Position numbers and translations under genes: made by a program. The notes beneath the pieces are model-generated. The model was not told the origin of the DNA. It saw only the letters and a list, made by a program, of their open reading frames with translations, and made no database searches. Below, one piece after another: positions 6,884 through 27,094 of a stretch of DNA of 64,000 nucleotides. Location: NCBI GenBank assembly GCA_000092065.1, contig CP000586.1. One strand, 5' to 3'. How positions within the stretch are numbered: position 1 is the stretch's first letter; the number at the start of each line of letters is the position of its first letter. The stretch comes from Ostreococcus lucimarinus (lineage: Eukaryota).

Positions 6884-7087
6884 CGCGATTCGCGCTCTTC
6901 GTCGCGCTGTGTCGCGCGTCGTCGTCGTCGCCGCGCGCGCGAAAACGCTCGAGTAACGCTCGAGTCTCACGGTCCGTCCGTTTACAACACGGATTTCAGG
7001 GCACAAACCCTCGGCGGCGTCGCGGGCGCGCCGTCGCGACGCGCGGCGCCGCGCACCGACGCGCGCGCGCGACGCGAACGCGCGCGC

Positions 7088-7170
7088 ATGCACACGACGC
7101 GCCCGTGCGGCGCCGCGCGCGACGCGCGCGCGATGTTCGCGTCGACGATGCGTCGACGCGCGCGATGGAT

Positions 7171-13604: not shown

Positions 13605-15395
13605 ATGGCGACGGCGACGGCGACGCGCGCGAGCGACGACGCGTTCGAGTACCGCGCGCGGCGAACGAGCGCGGGGGGGTATTATCGCCCGACGGCGTCG
13701 AGCGATGGACGCGCGGGCGCGACGTACGAGGTCGCGGAACGCGGCGGCGAGCACGCGGAGGAAGAGACGAGGACGCGGAGGTTCGACACGGCGTCGGCGC
13801 GCGGCGTGACGACGTTCGACGCGCGGACGTGCGAGGCGATCGAGTTCGTGCCGATCGACGCGTGGTCGCGGGATAAGGCGAATTTTGAAAAGTTGCGGTC
13901 GATGCGAACGTTTCGACTGCACAGACTGTGGAAGGCGTTCGCGACGATGCGCGCGCACGCGCGAAGGAGAAAGTTTCGGCGCGCGCGCGCGCGGTTTAAG
14001 GAATCGTCCGCGATTTACGGTGATGCGTTCGCGGGATACGCCGTTCCGACGATGATGCGCGTGTACGACGCGTGTCACTCGATCGCGCGAGACGCGCGCG
14101 TGTTTCGGCGCGAGGAAGCGCCGGCGACGAAGGTCGAAGAATCGTACGAGTTCGACGACGAAGCGAATCTCGCGCCGGCGACGTACGACGCGCGAGCTCT
14201 GTTCGAGACTCTGCTACGACTCGCAAACGAAGGCTCGACGCACATTCGTGACGTCGCGTCGGCGATTTCCAGCGATGTGGAAATCGCCAAAGACGCGATC
14301 GAGCGACGATTTCTCGCCGATTTGGATGAGCGTCTACAGCCCATGATCGCGGCGACGAAGCGGTACCGTCGACGATCGAGCGGAACGAACGGTGGAAAGC
14401 CAGCGCTCGCGCCCACGATCGGCGACGATCGACTTGTGACGGCGTCAGAGTCGAGAGACGCGTATCCTTACACCGAGCGCGCGCTCGTGGCGGCGCTTCG
14501 AATGAAGCTGGAATCTTTCGAGCGCTCGATTTGGATGTGTTTTCGAGTCGCGATTTCGCGCGCGAGAGACGCATCGCTCGAAGAACTCACCGCGTACGTG
14601 AGGGATGCGCGTTCGTCGGAGTCAGCGATATTTCAAACCACGTTTGATTTCGAAACGTCCGCGCTCGTACCGAGCTCGGATGCGTTCGAGCGAGCGATTC
14701 GAGACGGCGCCGCCGCCTGGACGTCGTCCTCGCTCGGCGAGCGCGTCGGCGACGCCGTCGATTTGCGCTCGCTCGAGGATGAAGAGTTTGAAAATCGCAT
14801 CGATAAATTTTGTGACCTCGTCCGCGACACGTTCGCGAGCGCGCAAGAGGCGTTGCTGGTCGTCGAGACGCGGTTGCGCGAAAAATCGCCAGACGCCGTC
14901 GCGGACGCAGACGGAGGCGATGACGAATCGTCGATGATTGAACGTTTGAGCGAGATCGTGGCGCGTTCGAATGCGTTCAAGAAGGAAGTCGACGCGTTGC
15001 CAGGATCGATTCGTCCGAACGACGGCGCGATCGCCGTGGACATCGTATCGCTGAAGCGCGCTTTGAAACCGGTGGCGTCGGCGACGATTGACTCCGCGTG
15101 CCGAACCGCCGTGGATTGGGCGGCCGAACGCGCGCAGACGATCGCGCAGAAGTTCACGCGCGTGAAAACCCTCGATGATAACGACGATGAGACCAAGTTG
15201 AGTAAGATCCGTGATCTCCGCGACGAGGCGCGAGAGCTCGAGAATGTGCATTTGGCGATGAAACGACTCGGCGCAAACATTCCGGATTTCGACCGCGCGG
15301 CGTTCAAAGGCGTCGTGGAGGAGATCGAAAACGCGCTCGCGGGTGACGACGGTGGCTACGAAAAAGATGAAACAAAGCACGGCGGCGATCGTTGA
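13605..15395 (+). CDS. Hypothetical protein (596 aa), predominantly alpha-helical/acidic
   Basis: Long ORF with complex composition and no recognised family. Head-to-head with eIF3i (188 bp spacer). A TGTAA element at 15466..15470 lies downstream of the stop. Confidence 0.55.
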   Translation: MATATATRASDDAFEYRARRTSAGGYYRPTASSDGRAGATYEVAERGGEHAEEETRTRRFDTASARGVTTFDARTCEAIEFVPIDAWSRDKANFEKLRSMRTFRLHRLWKAFATMRAHARRRKFRRARARFKESSAIYGDAFAGYAVPTMMRVYDACHSIARDARVFRREEAPATKVEESYEFDDEANLAPATYDARALFETLLRLANEGSTHIRDVASAISSDVEIAKDAIERRFLADLDERLQPMIAATKRYRRRSSGTNGGKPALAPTIGDDRLVTASESRDAYPYTERALVAALRMKLESFERSIWMCFRVAISRARDASLEELTAYVRDARSSESAIFQTTFDFETSALVPSSDAFERAIRDGAAAWTSSSLGERVGDAVDLRSLEDEEFENRIDKFCDLVRDTFASAQEALLVVETRLREKSPDAVADADGGDDESSMIERLSEIVARSNAFKKEVDALPGSIRPNDGAIAVDIVSLKRALKPVASATIDSACRTAVDWAAERAQTIAQKFTRVKTLDDNDDETKLSKIRDLRDEARELENVHLAMKRLGANIPDFDRAAFKGVVEEIENALAGDDGGYEKDETKHGGDR

Positions 15396-15477
15396 AGTGC
15401 TCTAATGTACTCGTGTTGTGTTACAAGACGTCAGCCCCGCGTACTAAAATTAGCGGTCTGTTATTTGTAAATACGAC

Positions 15478-16563
15478 TCACTCGGGATCGTCAAACGGAT
15501 CGAACCCATCGTCCAGAGTCCGCAACGTCGTGTTTTCGCTGTGCGTGTCGCCCAACATATCCTCAAGTCCGCGCTCCGCGGCGTCAAATTCTTCGAGTAA
15601 AGATCGCACGACGCGTCCTCGAGGCCTCGGCGCCGACGAGTCGTCGGCGCCGATTTGACGAGTTCTTCGCGCCTTGAACGGCGTCGCCGGGCACGCCGGC
15701 GCGCTATTCCTCGCGCTAGGCGACGAAGGCGGCGTTCCATACGTATACCCTTCGGCACCGTCACCCATCGTCGCCGTCGCCGCCGGCATCGCCATCGTCG
15801 CCTCGCGCGTCTCCTCGTCTCCCGACTCGCCCCCGAGCGTCGGCGTCCCTCCCGAGCGTTCCGGGCTCTCCAACCCTCCACCGCCCCCGACGCTCGCGCG
15901 CACCGCGACGGGCGACCACAGCGTATCCCCGCCCGCCATCGGCGCTCGAACGACGCTCTCCGGCGTCTCCTTCCCTCGCCCAGCCCCCCCCCCTCGGTCC
16001 GCCGCGCGCGGCGTCGGCGTCGTCATCATCGCCGCCGCCCGTCGTTTCTCCCCGACCCCACCCTTCGCCCGATCCATCGCCCGCGTCGGCGTCGACGCAT
16101 CCCGCGCCATCGCGCCGTCCCGCTCGCGCCGCATCGTCCCGTCTCCGCGCGTCGGCGTCCCGTCCATCGTCGATCCGGTCTCGCCCGCGCGTAATCGTCC
16201 GATCGCGTCGACCGCCCGCGCGTGATCGTCCGCGCCTTCGTCGCGCGCCGGTCTCGCGCGCGATCGAGATTCGCGCGGTTCGAGGCGCCCGCGCGGTTCG
16301 ACGACGCGCGCCGGTCTCGCGCGCGCGCGTCGCGGTGTGCCCAATCGCGTCGGCGCCGCTGACAATCCGCGTTTCCCGCGCTTTCGGGCGTCGTCTCTCA
16401 TGGGCCAAACCTTCGCTTCTGTGCGTCCTTCGCCGGGATTTATGTTTCGCTGTTCTGACGGGTCGTGACTCGACGGGTCGTGACATCTAGGGTTTGCAGA
16501 AGCCGCGGTCGATGTCGGCGGTCGAGCCCTCGCGGGCGGCGCCACACGACGACGCGACGCCAT
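15478..16563 (-). CDS. Low-complexity Pro/Arg/Gly-rich hypothetical protein; true start probably internal (e.g. ATG at 16401)
   Basis: ORF ends with a non-repetitive tail, LLEEFDAAERGLEDMLGDTHSENTTLRTLDDGFDPFDDPE. The remainder is disordered and Arg-rich. It could be an open-frame artefact of GC-rich DNA. Convergent with the 13605..15395 gene. Confidence 0.3.
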   Translation of the reverse strand: MASRRRVAPPARARPPTSTAASANPRCHDPSSHDPSEQRNINPGEGRTEAKVWPMRDDARKRGKRGLSAAPTRLGTPRRARARPARVVEPRGRLEPRESRSRARPARDEGADDHARAVDAIGRLRAGETGSTMDGTPTRGDGTMRRERDGAMARDASTPTRAMDRAKGGVGEKRRAAAMMTTPTPRAADRGGGAGRGKETPESVVRAPMAGGDTLWSPVAVRASVGGGGGLESPERSGGTPTLGGESGDEETREATMAMPAATATMGDGAEGYTYGTPPSSPSARNSAPACPATPFKARRTRQIGADDSSAPRPRGRVVRSLLEEFDAAERGLEDMLGDTHSENTTLRTLDDGFDPFDDPE

Positions 16564-18275
16564 GGCTCACGCGCTCGCGCGCGCGCGCGCGCCCGCGTCG
16601 CGAGGACGCGCGCCGGCGCGCGCGTCCGCGCCGGCGACCGCGCGACGATGCGTCGCGCGCGCGGCGCCGATCGCCGCGCGCGAAAAGGCTGCGCGCCGCG
16701 TCGCGATCGCGACGCGCGCGAGCGCGGACGCGCGCGGTGAATACGCGTCGCTCGGACAAGTGTGCGCGGGTACGATGAGAGCGCGCGATGCGAGGGCGCG
16801 AGGACGCGAACGCGCGCGGTCGGGGGGAGGGAGGACGGGACGCGGGCGAACGCGACCCTACGCGGCGAGCGGGACGAGACGCGAAGGCGAAGCGACGACG
16901 GCCGCGACGATGGAGGGAGGCCGAGGGATTCGAACGCGCGCGCGCGGTGAACGAAGCACGAGGCGATGGGCGCGCGGGGACTGACGGAGAGATTGATGCG
17001 TTTGCGTCGCGCGCGACAGTGCTCGGAAGCCAGTGGGGCGACGAGGGCAAGGGGAAATTAGTGGATATTTTGGCGCGCGAATACGACGTCGTGGCGAGAT
17101 GTCAAGGCGGTGCGAACGCGGGTCACACTATTTATGACGATGATGGGAAGAAGTACGCGCTGCATCTCGTTCCGAGCGGGATTTTGAATGAAAACGCGAC
17201 GTGCGTCGTCGGCAACGGCGTCGTGGTGCACCTTCCGGGGATGTTTGATGAGATTGACGCTTTATTAAAGGCTGGTGTGGACGCTCGAGGGCGTATGATG
17301 GTGTCTGATCGCGCGCATTTGTTGTTCGATCTTCATAAAGAAATCGATGGCTTGCGCGAGGCGGAGTTGAGTGGGAATAAAATCGGTACGACGAAGCGCG
17401 GCATCGGTCCCGCGTACGCCTCCAAAGCGACGCGCAACGGGGTTCGTTTGGGGGATATTCGAGACGCCGATAAGTTTGCGAACGCTTTGCGCACGCTTGC
17501 GGCGGACGCGGCGGCTCGATTCGATGGTTTCGAGTACGATGTCGAGGCGGAGATTGTGCGATACAGAGAAATCGCGTCGCGCATCGAGCCGTTCATCGCG
17601 GACACGGTCGAGTACGTCAACGACGCGCACAGGAACGGGAAGAAGATCTTAGTCGAGGGTGCGAACGCGACCATGCTTGATTTGGATTTCGGTACGTATC
17701 CGTTCGTGACGTCCTCCAACCCAGCGATTGGTGGCGTTAGCAATGGCCTCGGTTTGGCGCCGAGAAAGTTTGAAACCATCATCGGCGTCGCCAAGGCGTA
17801 CACCACGCGCGTCGGTGCGGGTCCGTACCCGACTGAACTTTTCGGTGACGTCGCCGATAAACTCCGCGAACTCGGCTACGAGTACGGCACCACCACCGGT
17901 CGCCCTCGTCGCATCGGTTGGTTGGACATGGTGGCGTTGAACTACGCCAACCAAATCAACGGCTTCACGCACTTGAATATCACCAAGCTCGACGTATTGA
18001 GCGAGATGGACGAGCTCAAAATCGGCGTCGCCTACGAGCTTCCTAACGGAAAGACCACGACTGCGTTCCCGGCCGACATCGCCACCTTGGAAAATGTCAA
18101 GGTGGTTTACGAAACCTTGCCCGGTTGGAAAACCGACATCGCAAACGTGCGCTCTTGGGACGACATGCCCGAAAACGCCAAAAAGTACATTCTTCGCTGC
18201 GAGGAGCTCTCGGGCGTCGAGTGTCGCTACATTGGCGTCGGCCCGGGTCGCGACGCCATGGTAATTAAACCGTAA
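16562..18275 (+). CDS. Adenylosuccinate synthetase, plastid-type. Two exons: 16562..16769 (transit peptide plus first conserved residues) and 17020..18275
   Basis: Exon 2 carries the whole AdSS domain ([37 protein letters not shown] … [14 protein letters not shown] … [13 protein letters not shown] …). Exon 1 encodes a classic Ala/Arg/Ser transit peptide ([69 protein letters not shown]). Splicing 16769^17020 (phase 1) yields …[21 protein letters not shown]. This matches the plant PURA junction …[20 protein letters not shown], as I recall it. The unspliced frame of the track ORF 16788.. instead gives an acidic, non-conserved N-terminus. Confidence 0.85.
16770..17019 (+). other. Spliceosomal intron (250 nt) of adenylosuccinate synthetase: donor GTACGA, branch GGGACTGACGG at 16977..16987, acceptor CGACAG
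   Basis: Frame change between the transit-peptide ORF (frame of 16562) and the AdSS ORF (frame of 16788). Only this donor/acceptor pair restores the conserved junction. The ACTGAC branch motif sits 37 nt upstream of the AG. Confidence 0.55.
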
Positions 18276-18402
18276 TCGTAATAATACCAGTACTTTCGGA
18301 CGTACAACGCGCGCGCGCGTTCGCCGACCTCGCCCCGCCGCACACCACGCCGCTTCTCGCGTCGCCCGACCCGCGACGCCCGACTCGAGCGCTCAAGTCA
18401 CG

Positions 18403-19218
18403 ATGTCGTCTTTCACCGTCTCTTCGGCGTCGCGCGTCACCGCGCGCGCCGCGACGCGCGTCGCGTCGACGCGCGTCCGCGCGAAAACCTCAAAGTTCGC
18501 GTTCGCCGGCGATCGTCGCCCACGCCGCGACGTCGCGCGCTTCGCGAGCGCCGCGGGCGGCGCCGAGGGCGCGGACCCGTACGCCGTGCTCGGCGTCAAG
18601 CCGGACGCGGACGCGCTGGCGGTGAAGAAGGCGTATAACAGCAAGCAAATGCTGTACAAGGGCGAGGGCGACAAGCTCGCGGCGGTCGAGCGGGCGTACG
18701 AAGCCATCCTGCAAGCTGGCCTGAGCGCGCGATTGAGCGGCAAGGGCGCGGTTGACACGAACGTGCGATTCGCGGATAAGGTGATCCGATCGAAGTGGGC
18801 GCCGCGACCGTGTCCGTCGCCGATGAAGGACGTCGTGGTCAATTACGGATTGACGATGGGGTGCGCGCTCGTCACGCTGGTGACGCCGCCGAACATGCGA
18901 ACGCTGCAAGTGACCATCTTCGCCGCGCTTTTGATGGTGTTCAGGTTCTTTGTGAAACTCGTGGACGTCGATCCGGGTCCTAACGCCGTGCTCGATCCGC
19001 CGGCGGCGCAAAAGCATAACAACGCGAGATTTGCGAGATCCTTCGGCGTCGTCTTGGGGACGTTTGTCGCCACGTTGTTCGTCACGTTTTGGTTGCCGCA
19101 GTTCTTCATCGAGGTGTTGGGGCTGACTGTGCCGGCGTGGGTCATGTTGCACCAGGAAGTTTTCGTGAGCTCTGCGTGCGGGTTCGTCTTAGCGTCGCTC
19201 GTGAGCTTTTATCGATGA
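18403..19218 (+). CDS. Chloroplast-targeted J-like domain membrane protein (tentatively CPP1/CDF1-like)
   Basis: Transit-peptide-like N-terminus (MSSFTVSSASRVTARAATRVASTRVRAKTSKFAFAG). J-like domain lacking HPD (DPYAVLGVKPDADALAVKKAYNSKQMLYKGEGDKLAAVERAYEAI). Three or four C-terminal hydrophobic helices follow. Assignment to the CPP1 family is by architecture only. Confidence 0.6.
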   Translation: MSSFTVSSASRVTARAATRVASTRVRAKTSKFAFAGDRRPRRDVARFASAAGGAEGADPYAVLGVKPDADALAVKKAYNSKQMLYKGEGDKLAAVERAYEAILQAGLSARLSGKGAVDTNVRFADKVIRSKWAPRPCPSPMKDVVVNYGLTMGCALVTLVTPPNMRTLQVTIFAALLMVFRFFVKLVDVDPGPNAVLDPPAAQKHNNARFARSFGVVLGTFVATLFVTFWLPQFFIEVLGLTVPAWVMLHQEVFVSSACGFVLASLVSFYR

Positions 19219-26777: not shown

Positions 26778-27094
26778 CGCGCGGTGTGTCGAGCGACGCG
26801 TTGTCGCGGTCGCCGCCGCCGCGCGCGCGACGCGCGGGTCGAACCCGCGTCGCGTCGCGCCTTCGCGAAGGGTCTCTCGGTCGATGGTCGTCACTGTTTA
26901 CCCATACGGATCGTGCGTTCGGAGGTGATTTCGAGCGCTTTTGCGACCTCGCGCGCTCGACGCCGCGCGCGTCGCGCCGCGCGCGCGACGCACGCGCGCG
27001 CGCGGCGACCGGTCGAGCGCGCGCGCGCGACCGCGGCGCGCGCGCGAACGCGCGCGACCGCGCGCGACGCGCGCGCGCGCGACGCGAGCGACCG

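What the first reader, a model, noticed from the sequence alone, without database searches (positions are those of the whole stretch)
16562..17022. AdSS intron rescues a canonical plastid transit-peptide exon that the six-frame track misses
Track ORF 16788..18275 gives AdSS an acidic, non-conserved 65-aa N-terminus. Track ORF 16562..16984, in another frame, begins with a textbook Ala/Arg/Ser transit peptide. Splicing 16769^17020 (phase 1) joins them into …[21 protein letters not shown]. That reproduces the plant plastidic PURA junction …[20 protein letters not shown], as I recall it. This supports plastid-localised purine biosynthesis. It also shows that real first exons can be hidden in apparently junk overlapping ORFs.
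Basis: partly seen in the sequence, partly recalled or inferred. Interest (0 to 1): 0.55.

Follow-up and report, generated by a model that had tools for sequence, protein, structure and literature searches.

The report
Missed first exon of algal AdSS
The adenylosuccinate synthetase gene of the tiny green alga Ostreococcus lucimarinus has a 250-base intron, and its real first exon encodes an organelle-targeting peptide; the public gene model misses this exon, but the biology is ordinary and already annotated in the sister species.

Summary
Window 16562-16769 (ATG, 69 codons plus 1 base) joins through a GT...AG intron (16770-17019, 250 nt, phase 1, branch-like ACTGAC 35 nt before the acceptor) to 17020-18275. 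The product is a 487-aa adenylosuccinate synthetase (AdSS).

- **Direct support.** This exact protein is encoded on a public Logan contig (SRR28369075_86343). That contig aligns to the window with exactly these 250 nt missing.
- **Conservation.** The junction rebuilds ...[20 protein letters not shown]. The same block is found in O. tauri (curated v2 model), Bathycoccus, Micromonas, Mantoniella, other green algae and land plants.
- **Second species.** A genomic contig from another Ostreococcus species has the same intron position, phase, GTACG donor and ACTGAC...CAG acceptor.
- **Public model.** The window is O. lucimarinus CCE9901. Its RefSeq/UniProt model (XP_001418148.1 / A4RYD2, 428 aa) starts at ATG 16788 inside the intron, uses a weak donor at 16818/16819 and lacks any presequence.
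- **Targeting.** The first 40 residues have 17 Ala, 9 Arg and no acidic residue, which fits a transit peptide. Plastid rather than mitochondrial targeting is inferred, not tested.
- **Corrections.** The unspliced N-terminus is 77 aa and net basic, not 65 aa and acidic.

Verdict: correct, ordinary gene-model repair with low novelty.

The parts
16562..16769 (+). Exon 1 of the AdSS gene: ATG plus 69 codons plus the first base of the split Val codon. It encodes the presequence and the conserved ...[11 protein letters not shown] block.
   Evidence: sequence, ORF, translation. It is identical in the intron-less contig L001. The block aligns to orthologs.
16562..16711 (+). Predicted organelle (plastid) transit peptide, about residues 1-50. 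The cleavage region is inferred near ...VAIATRA|SADARGEY.
   Evidence: the first 40 aa have 17 Ala, 9 Arg, 0 Asp/Glu, and the first acidic residue is at position 41; the mature Arabidopsis 1DJ2 chain starts aligning at query residue 50, and E. coli PurA at residue 68. The cleavage site is inferred, not tested.
16770..17019 (+). Spliceosomal intron, 250 nt, phase 1. Donor G|GTACGA (16770-16775), branch-like ACTGAC (16980-16985, A at 16984, 35 nt before the 3' end), acceptor CAG (17017-17019).
   Evidence: It is precisely absent from L001. The same position, phase and signals occur in L004, and ACTGAC...CAG|T also occurs in L002, L003, L005 and L006.
16788..16818 (+). Mis-annotated first exon of the public O. 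lucimarinus model ([10 protein letters not shown] plus G, donor GCG|GTCGGG). It lies inside the real intron.
   Evidence: P0126 = XP_001418148.1/A4RYD2, 428 aa; enumeration reproduces [11 protein letters not shown]. The sequence is on record only from genome annotation.
17020..18275 (+). Exon 2: the rest of the AdSS catalytic domain through stop TAA (18273-18275). The P-loop GDEGKGK is at 17037-17057.
   Evidence: PF00709 covers residues 69-483, profile 1-415/416, E=1.4e-176; 1DJ3 and 1DJ2 at E about 1e-184.

Best explanation
This is the nuclear gene for adenylosuccinate synthetase (PurA/AdSS, IMP + Asp + GTP to adenylosuccinate) of Ostreococcus lucimarinus CCE9901. It has two exons. Exon 1 (16562-16769) encodes an Ala/Arg-rich N-terminal presequence of about 50 aa, followed by the start of the mature enzyme (...[11 protein letters not shown]). 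A 250-nt GT-AG intron (16770-17019, phase 1) is removed. Exon 2 (17020-18275) begins inside the Val codon directly before the P-loop ([13 protein letters not shown]). The 487-aa precursor is most likely imported into the plastid and the presequence cleaved, giving a mature enzyme with the same N-terminus as the plant plastidic AdSS. Shown: the exon/intron boundaries, the identity of the enzyme, and conservation of the junction block and of the intron position. Inferred: the targeting compartment, the cleavage site, and that contig L001 is RNA-derived.
For: (1) A canonical GT...AG intron with ACTGAC 35 nt upstream of the acceptor joins the frames without a stop. (2) The exact 487-aa product exists in public data (P0122). 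It sits on Logan contig SRR28369075_86343, which is colinear with window 14811-16769 plus 17020-18440 at over 99% identity, with exactly the 250 nt missing. (3) O. tauri curated model Q017T9.2 reads ...AELGNVCAVLGSQWG. Bathycoccus-like, Micromonas and Mantoniella sequences (the last two from MMETSP transcriptomes) read ...LG[QSN]VCAVLGSQWG contiguously. Coccomyxa, Cymbomonas, Picocystis, moss, lycophyte and fern share the block, as do Arabidopsis and wheat crystal-structure chains. (4) Genomic contig L004, from another Ostreococcus species with 87% protein identity, has ...SLGRVCA|G GTACGT, a 289-nt intron, then ACTGAC...ACAG|TG CTC, at the same site and phase. (5) Pfam PF00709 matches full length at E=1.4e-176. 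(6) The presequence has 17 Ala and 9 Arg in the first 40 aa with no acidic residue. All orthologs carry a non-conserved extension of similar length. (7) First-generation Ostreococcus annotations are known to be unreliable for introns: only 7% of the 2006 O. tauri introns were validated by RNA-seq (PMC4378021).
Against: The library type of SRR28369075 could not be established. L001 also spans a divergent intergenic region and neighbouring genes. It could therefore be DNA from a strain that lost the intron precisely, rather than a transcript. PMC4378021 does report that Ostreococcus RNA-seq assemblies concatenate neighbouring transcripts. No RNA-seq from strain CCE9901 itself was examined. No targeting predictor was run, and Ala/Arg-rich green-algal presequences resemble mitochondrial ones. 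The spliced product predicted for L004 was not found by exact look-up.
Confidence: 0.9

Rival explanations
1. The public RefSeq/UniProt model is right or is a genuine alternative isoform. Translation starts at ATG 16788, a 10-aa first exon ([10 protein letters not shown]) is spliced from 16818 to 17020, and the result is a presequence-less, cytosolic 428-aa AdSS.
For: The model exists as XP_001418148.1 / A4RYD2. Its donor is a formally valid phase-1 GT that uses the same acceptor.
Against: It deletes the xLGxVCA block that is present in all 14 other full-length orthologs aligned. The donor GCG|GTCGGG does not resemble the GGTACG donors of the window and L004. The sequence is on record only from one genome annotation contig, with no independent contig. 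Such ab initio intron calls in Ostreococcus were mostly wrong.
Confidence: 0.03
2. There is no intron, and the protein is the contiguous 495-aa ORF 16788-18275 as called by prokaryote-style gene finders.
For: The ORF is open, and it is the form reported on 389 metagenomic contigs (P0121).
Against: Its 77 N-terminal residues have no counterpart in any ortholog. In O. tauri and two other Ostreococcus lineages the equivalent read-through peptides are entirely different from each other (MDAVCARVW..., MTDEFFSCF..., MTDGRALRE...). Conservation begins exactly at the acceptor in every lineage. The 250 nt are precisely excised in L001.
Confidence: 0.02
3. The gene structure is as proposed, but the presequence directs the enzyme to mitochondria or to both organelles, not specifically to the plastid.
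For: The peptide is Ala/Arg-rich with few Ser/Thr (2 Ser and 1 Thr in the first 40 aa). This composition is also typical of mitochondrial presequences, and green-algal plastid transit peptides are known to be hard to distinguish from them (general knowledge).
Against: Plant AdSS is plastidic, and UniProt names the Viridiplantae orthologs 'chloroplastic' (names). Bathycoccus-like orthologs carry Ser/Thr-rich extensions that are more typical of plastid transit peptides. No member of the green lineage is known to have a mitochondrial AdSS (general knowledge, not tested here).
Confidence: 0.1
4. Contig L001 is genomic DNA of a related strain that has lost the intron (an intron presence/absence polymorphism), not a spliced transcript.
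For: L001 covers 3.4 kb, including a divergent intergenic region and parts of three genes. It differs from the window at 17 positions, so it is another strain. The library type is unknown.
Against: The unspliced form is seen on hundreds of contigs and the spliced form on one. RNA-seq assemblies of Ostreococcus are reported to concatenate neighbouring transcripts. L001 ends 165 nt after the stop codon, which is a plausible 3' UTR end. Even if true, precise loss still marks 16770-17019 as the intron.
Confidence: 0.1

Closest known systems
Ostreococcus tauri adenylosuccinate synthetase, chloroplastic (UniProt Q017T9.2; CEF98222.1 / XP_022839144.1, 480 aa)
   Same: It falls in the same 90%-identity cluster. 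It has the same architecture: a non-conserved basic presequence, then ...[21 protein letters not shown]. The O. tauri genomic read-through ORF diverges exactly at the same acceptor...TTCGCAG|TG CTC, with ACTGAC upstream. This implies the same intron.
   Different: The presequence sequence is unrelated (MATARVMVADRARAF... versus [15 protein letters not shown]...). The O. tauri model comes from the RNA-seq-guided, manually curated re-annotation described in PMC4378021. No corrected O. lucimarinus model was found in the annotated sources searched.
Arabidopsis thaliana and wheat plastidic AdSS (PDB 1DJ2, 1DJ3)
   Same: E about 1e-184 over the whole mature enzyme. The N-terminal block ...[20 protein letters not shown] (Arabidopsis) and ...[20 protein letters not shown] (wheat) aligns with [20 protein letters not shown].
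   Different: The crystal chains are mature proteins without the transit peptide. The land-plant presequences are not homologous to this one.
Public O. lucimarinus CCE9901 model XP_001418148.1 / UniProt A4RYD2 (428 aa)
   Same: Identical from VLGSQWG to the C-terminus, and it uses the same acceptor at 17019/17020.
   Different: It starts at ATG 16788 inside the intron with a 10-aa exon. It lacks the presequence and the conserved xLGxVCA block, although UniProt names it 'chloroplastic'.
Bacterial PurA (E. coli 1ADE)
   Same: Same fold family and the same P-loop and catalytic motifs. The alignment starts at query residue 68.
   Different: It has no N-terminal extension and no intron.

Membership tests
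Adenylosuccinate synthetase (Pfam PF00709, EC 6.3.4.4) | Full-length match to the family profile above the curated cut-off | tested here: met
   587.8 bits against a cut-off of 27, covering residues 69-483 and profile positions 1-415 of 416.
Adenylosuccinate synthetase (Pfam PF00709, EC 6.3.4.4) | N-terminal GTP-binding P-loop GDEGKGK and the GGxNAGHT motif | tested here: met
   G76 D77 E78 G79 K80 G81 K82 and G99 G100 N102 A103 G104 H105 T106 are invariant columns across 16 sequences.
Adenylosuccinate synthetase (Pfam PF00709, EC 6.3.4.4) | Enzymatic activity (IMP + Asp + GTP to adenylosuccinate) | not testable with these tools
   Inferred from about 60% identity to structurally characterised plant enzymes.
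Plant-type plastidic AdSS (HAMAP/UniProt 'Adenylosuccinate synthetase, chloroplastic') | Closest relatives are Viridiplantae AdSS, and it shares the mature N-terminal block xLxQVxxVLGxQWG | tested here: met
Plant-type plastidic AdSS (HAMAP/UniProt 'Adenylosuccinate synthetase, chloroplastic') | N-terminal extension with transit-peptide character: no acidic residues at the start, net positive charge, poorly conserved among orthologs | tested here: met
   for composition. One search shows extensions in all orthologs with no conserved columns. Composition alone does not separate plastid from mitochondrial targeting.
Plant-type plastidic AdSS (HAMAP/UniProt 'Adenylosuccinate synthetase, chloroplastic') | Predicted or demonstrated import into the plastid | not testable with these tools
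   No TargetP or PredAlgo was available, and no localisation data were found.
Spliceosomal GT-AG intron | GT donor, AG acceptor, and a branch-site-like CTRAY 20-40 nt upstream of the acceptor | tested here: met
   GTACGA...ACTGAC(N31)CAG.
Spliceosomal GT-AG intron | Precise removal seen in an independent sequence | tested here: met
   L001 lacks exactly 16770-17019. It was not established whether L001 is RNA or an intron-less allele.
Spliceosomal GT-AG intron | Position and phase conserved in a related species | tested here: met
   L004 has a 289-nt intron at the same codon and phase. Acceptor and branch motifs are conserved in L002, L003, L005 and L006.
Spliceosomal GT-AG intron | Junction reads from RNA of the same strain | not tested
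   No read-level data are accessible with these tools.

The most novel reading that the evidence does not exclude
The locus makes two AdSS isoforms. One is a presequence-bearing organellar form from ATG 16562. The other is a presequence-less cytosolic form from an internal promoter and ATG 16788 within intron 1, which is the RefSeq model. Alternatively, the intron is polymorphic (present or absent) among natural O. lucimarinus strains, with L001 being an intron-less genomic allele.
Probability: 0.05. Interest if true: 0.3.

Novelty: already known. Interest (0 to 1): 0.12.

Why it matters
The practical value is a corrected gene model. The RefSeq/UniProt entry for O. lucimarinus AdSS (XP_001418148.1 / A4RYD2) lacks its true first exon. 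It therefore lacks both the targeting peptide and a conserved part of the mature N-terminus. This would mislead localisation predictions and metabolic reconstructions of purine synthesis in this model picoalga. It also illustrates a known weakness of first-generation Ostreococcus annotations and of six-frame ORF tracks in GC-rich genomes. No new biology is implied. Plastid-targeted AdSS is the norm in the green lineage, and the O. tauri ortholog is already annotated this way.

Tried and rejected
- I searched the literature for SRR28369075 to learn whether the intron-less contig is RNA-derived. There were no hits.
- I built the spliced product for the second Ostreococcus species (L004) in two variants and looked it up exactly. 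Neither is in the collection, probably because of strain variation in exon 1. This is not evidence against the model.
- I could not inspect O. tauri exon 1 genomically, because contigs L005 and L006 end inside the intron.
- L002 and L003 also lack enough upstream sequence.
- L007 and L008 (485-aa contiguous form, GC about 53%) could be transcripts or an intron-less species. This is unresolved.
- A fixed-spacing search for ACTGAC-N29-CAG returned nothing, because the true spacing is 31 nt. It is uninformative.
- I considered and rejected the unspliced 495-aa ORF and the RefSeq 428-aa model (see rivals).
- Structure prediction was not run, because near-identical solved structures already exist.

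Full report
**Observation**

The window is GC-rich (62.7%; exon 1 81%, intron 72%, exon 2 57%). Around the finding it carries open reading frames in all six frames.
- 16562..16984 (+, ATG, 140 aa, [24 protein letters not shown]...)
- 16788..18275 (+, ATG, 495 aa)

The DNA shows ...GTG TGC GCG G|GTACGATG at 16769/16770 and ...GCGCGACAG|TG CTC GGA AGC CAG TGG at 17019/17020. Exon 1 is 208 nt (phase 1) and the intron is 250 nt. A branch-site-like ACTGAC lies at 16980-16985, 35 nt before the acceptor. The joined CDS translates cleanly to 487 aa with ...[24 protein letters not shown].

Two details in the finding are inexact. The intron-derived N-terminus of the 495-aa ORF is 77 aa, not 65. It is net basic (+7) despite 15 acidic residues, so it is not acidic.

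**Identity of the locus**

- Pfam PF00709 (adenylosuccinate synthetase) covers residues 69-483 of the spliced protein, profile positions 1-415 of 416, E=1.4e-176.
- The best solved relatives are the wheat and Arabidopsis plastidic enzymes 1DJ3 and 1DJ2, at E about 1e-184.
- Exact look-up identifies the organism. The public model XP_001418148.1 / UniProt A4RYD2 of Ostreococcus lucimarinus CCE9901 (428 aa) reads [17 protein letters not shown]... and is identical to the window from V onward.
- That model therefore starts at ATG 16788, uses a donor at 16818/16819 (GCG|GTCGGG) and shares the acceptor at 17019/17020. This is reproduced in the enumeration.
- It carries neither a presequence nor the conserved block, although UniProt names it 'chloroplastic'.

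The exact 487-aa spliced protein is in the public collection as P0122. It sits on a 3381-bp Logan contig, SRR28369075_86343, fetched as L001.

L001 aligns to window 14811-16769 and 17020-18440 at 99.3% and 99.8% identity. Exactly the 250 nt 16770-17019 are missing, and the junction reads ...GTGTGCGCGG|TGCTCGGAAGC.

The differences between L001 and the window fall in two places. Fourteen lie in the non-coding stretch 16248-16486. Three are single-base changes in exon 2 that leave the protein unchanged. The source is therefore a different strain.

I could not establish whether the run is RNA. The contig spans several genes. This is expected of Ostreococcus RNA-seq assemblies, which "concatenate transcripts due to overlapping UTRs" (PMC4378021). 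A precise intron loss in a related strain is not excluded. Either way, the boundaries of the intron are defined.

**Comparative evidence**

The block rebuilt by the splice is conserved across the green lineage:

| Source | Junction block |
|---|---|
| O. tauri curated v2 model Q017T9.2 | ...AELGNVCAVLGSQWG |
| Bathycoccus-like metagenomic ORFs (contiguous) | ...KKLG[NQ]VCAVLGSQWG |
| Mantoniella (MMETSP transcriptome) | ...SLGSVCAVLGSQWG |
| Micromonas (MMETSP transcriptome) | ...TLGSVCAVLGSQWG |
| Picocystis, Cymbomonas, moss, Selaginella, fern, Klebsormidium | block present |
| Arabidopsis 1DJ2 | [20 protein letters not shown] |

The read-through peptides upstream of VLGSQWG behave the opposite way. 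They are unrelated among Ostreococcus lineages...IDAFASRAT (window), MDAVCARVW... (O. tauri), MTDEFFSCF... and MTDGRALRE.... Conservation begins exactly at the acceptor.

In all four lineages the 60 nt before the acceptor contain GACTGACG followed by CAG|T.

Genomic contig L004 comes from another Ostreococcus species with 87% protein identity, and it has enough upstream sequence to show the whole structure. An ATG ORF ends ...ADEWGSLGRVCA|G. It is followed by GTACGT, a 289-nt intron, and ACTGAC...ACAG|TG CTC, at the same codon and phase.

There are 19 ATG/GT combinations in the window that are formally compatible with the acceptor. Only 16562/16769 yields the conserved block.

**Presequence**

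- Residues 1-40 contain 17 Ala, 9 Arg and no Asp or Glu. The first acidic residue is at position 41.
- Orthologs all have extensions of similar length with no conserved columns, as expected for targeting peptides.
- The mature Arabidopsis chain begins aligning at residue 50, and E. coli PurA at residue 68.
- Cleavage therefore most likely falls around ...VAIATRA|SADARGEY. This is an inference.
- Plastid targeting follows from established knowledge that plant AdSS and de novo purine synthesis are plastidic. It was not tested here.
- By composition alone, a mitochondrial or dual destination cannot be excluded. I give that about 0.1.

**Mechanism**

This is an ordinary two-exon nuclear gene.
1. 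Transcription starts upstream of 16562, in the 430-nt divergent intergenic region shared with a minus-strand neighbour.
2. The spliceosome removes 16770-17019.
3. The 487-aa precursor is translated from ATG 16562.
4. The precursor is imported and its presequence is cleaved.
5. The mature AdSS has a plant-type N-terminus.

Steps 2 and 3 are shown by sequence evidence. Steps 1, 4 and 5 are inferred.

**Comparison with what is known, and novelty**

The architecture is the same as the curated O. tauri ortholog and plant PURA. The only new element is that the public O. lucimarinus model is wrong at its 5' end. Such errors are typical of first-generation Ostreococcus annotations. Only 7% of the 2006 O. 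tauri introns were validated by RNA-seq, against 89% after re-annotation (PMC4378021). The finding is correct and useful as an annotation fix, but it is not surprising to a specialist. Interest is 0.12 and novelty is 'already known'.

**Surroundings**

- The downstream neighbour at 18403-19218 (+) is a CPP1-like / DnaJ-like protein (PF11833, E=2e-10). It has its own Ser/Thr/Ala/Arg-rich N-terminus.
- The AdSS-CPP1 gene order is conserved in L004, L005 and L006.
- The minus-strand ORFs that overlap exon 1 and the intron (for example 16487..17050) have no family match or conservation evidence. They look like GC-driven spurious ORFs.

Noticed in passing
window 18403-19218 (+): The downstream neighbour encodes a CPP1-like (CHAPERONE-LIKE PROTEIN OF POR1) / DnaJ-like membrane protein (PF11833, E=2e-10). 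Its N-terminus is transit-peptide-like (MSSFTVSSASRVTARAATRVASTRVRA...). The AdSS-CPP1 gene order is conserved in contigs from two other Ostreococcus lineages: L004 and O. tauri-like L005/L006.
   Followed up: partly
window 7058-7130 (-) and 26971-27064 (-): ARAGORN calls tRNA-Ala(CGC) and a 94-nt tRNA-Pro(CGG). Rfam finds no tRNA match at gathering threshold in the whole window, and none at E<=1 around either site. These are probably false positives in GC-rich sequence.
   Followed up: partly
window 16248-16486: All 14 upstream differences between the window and the near-identical contig L001, including 5 indels, cluster in this 240-nt stretch of the divergent intergenic / 5' UTR region. Exon 1 (16562-16769) is identical. 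This is consistent with relaxed constraint on the shared promoter region.
   Followed up: no
L007 and L008 (JGI 3300057058 and Logan SRR27841044): A more distant Ostreococcus-like AdSS (485 aa, GC about 53%) has a His6-containing, Ser-rich presequence. It is encoded contiguously through the junction (...EWKDLGRVCAVLGSQWG). It is either a transcript or a lineage without this intron. Bathycoccus-like contigs are also contiguous here, so the intron may be restricted to a subset of Ostreococcus.
   Followed up: partly
window 15478-16563 (-), 16487-17050 (-), 15655-16225 (+): Many long overlapping ORFs in several frames are rich in Arg, Ala and Gly and have no family matches. This is typical of a GC-rich (GCG)n-like sequence, and ORF length alone is not evidence of coding here.
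   Followed up: no
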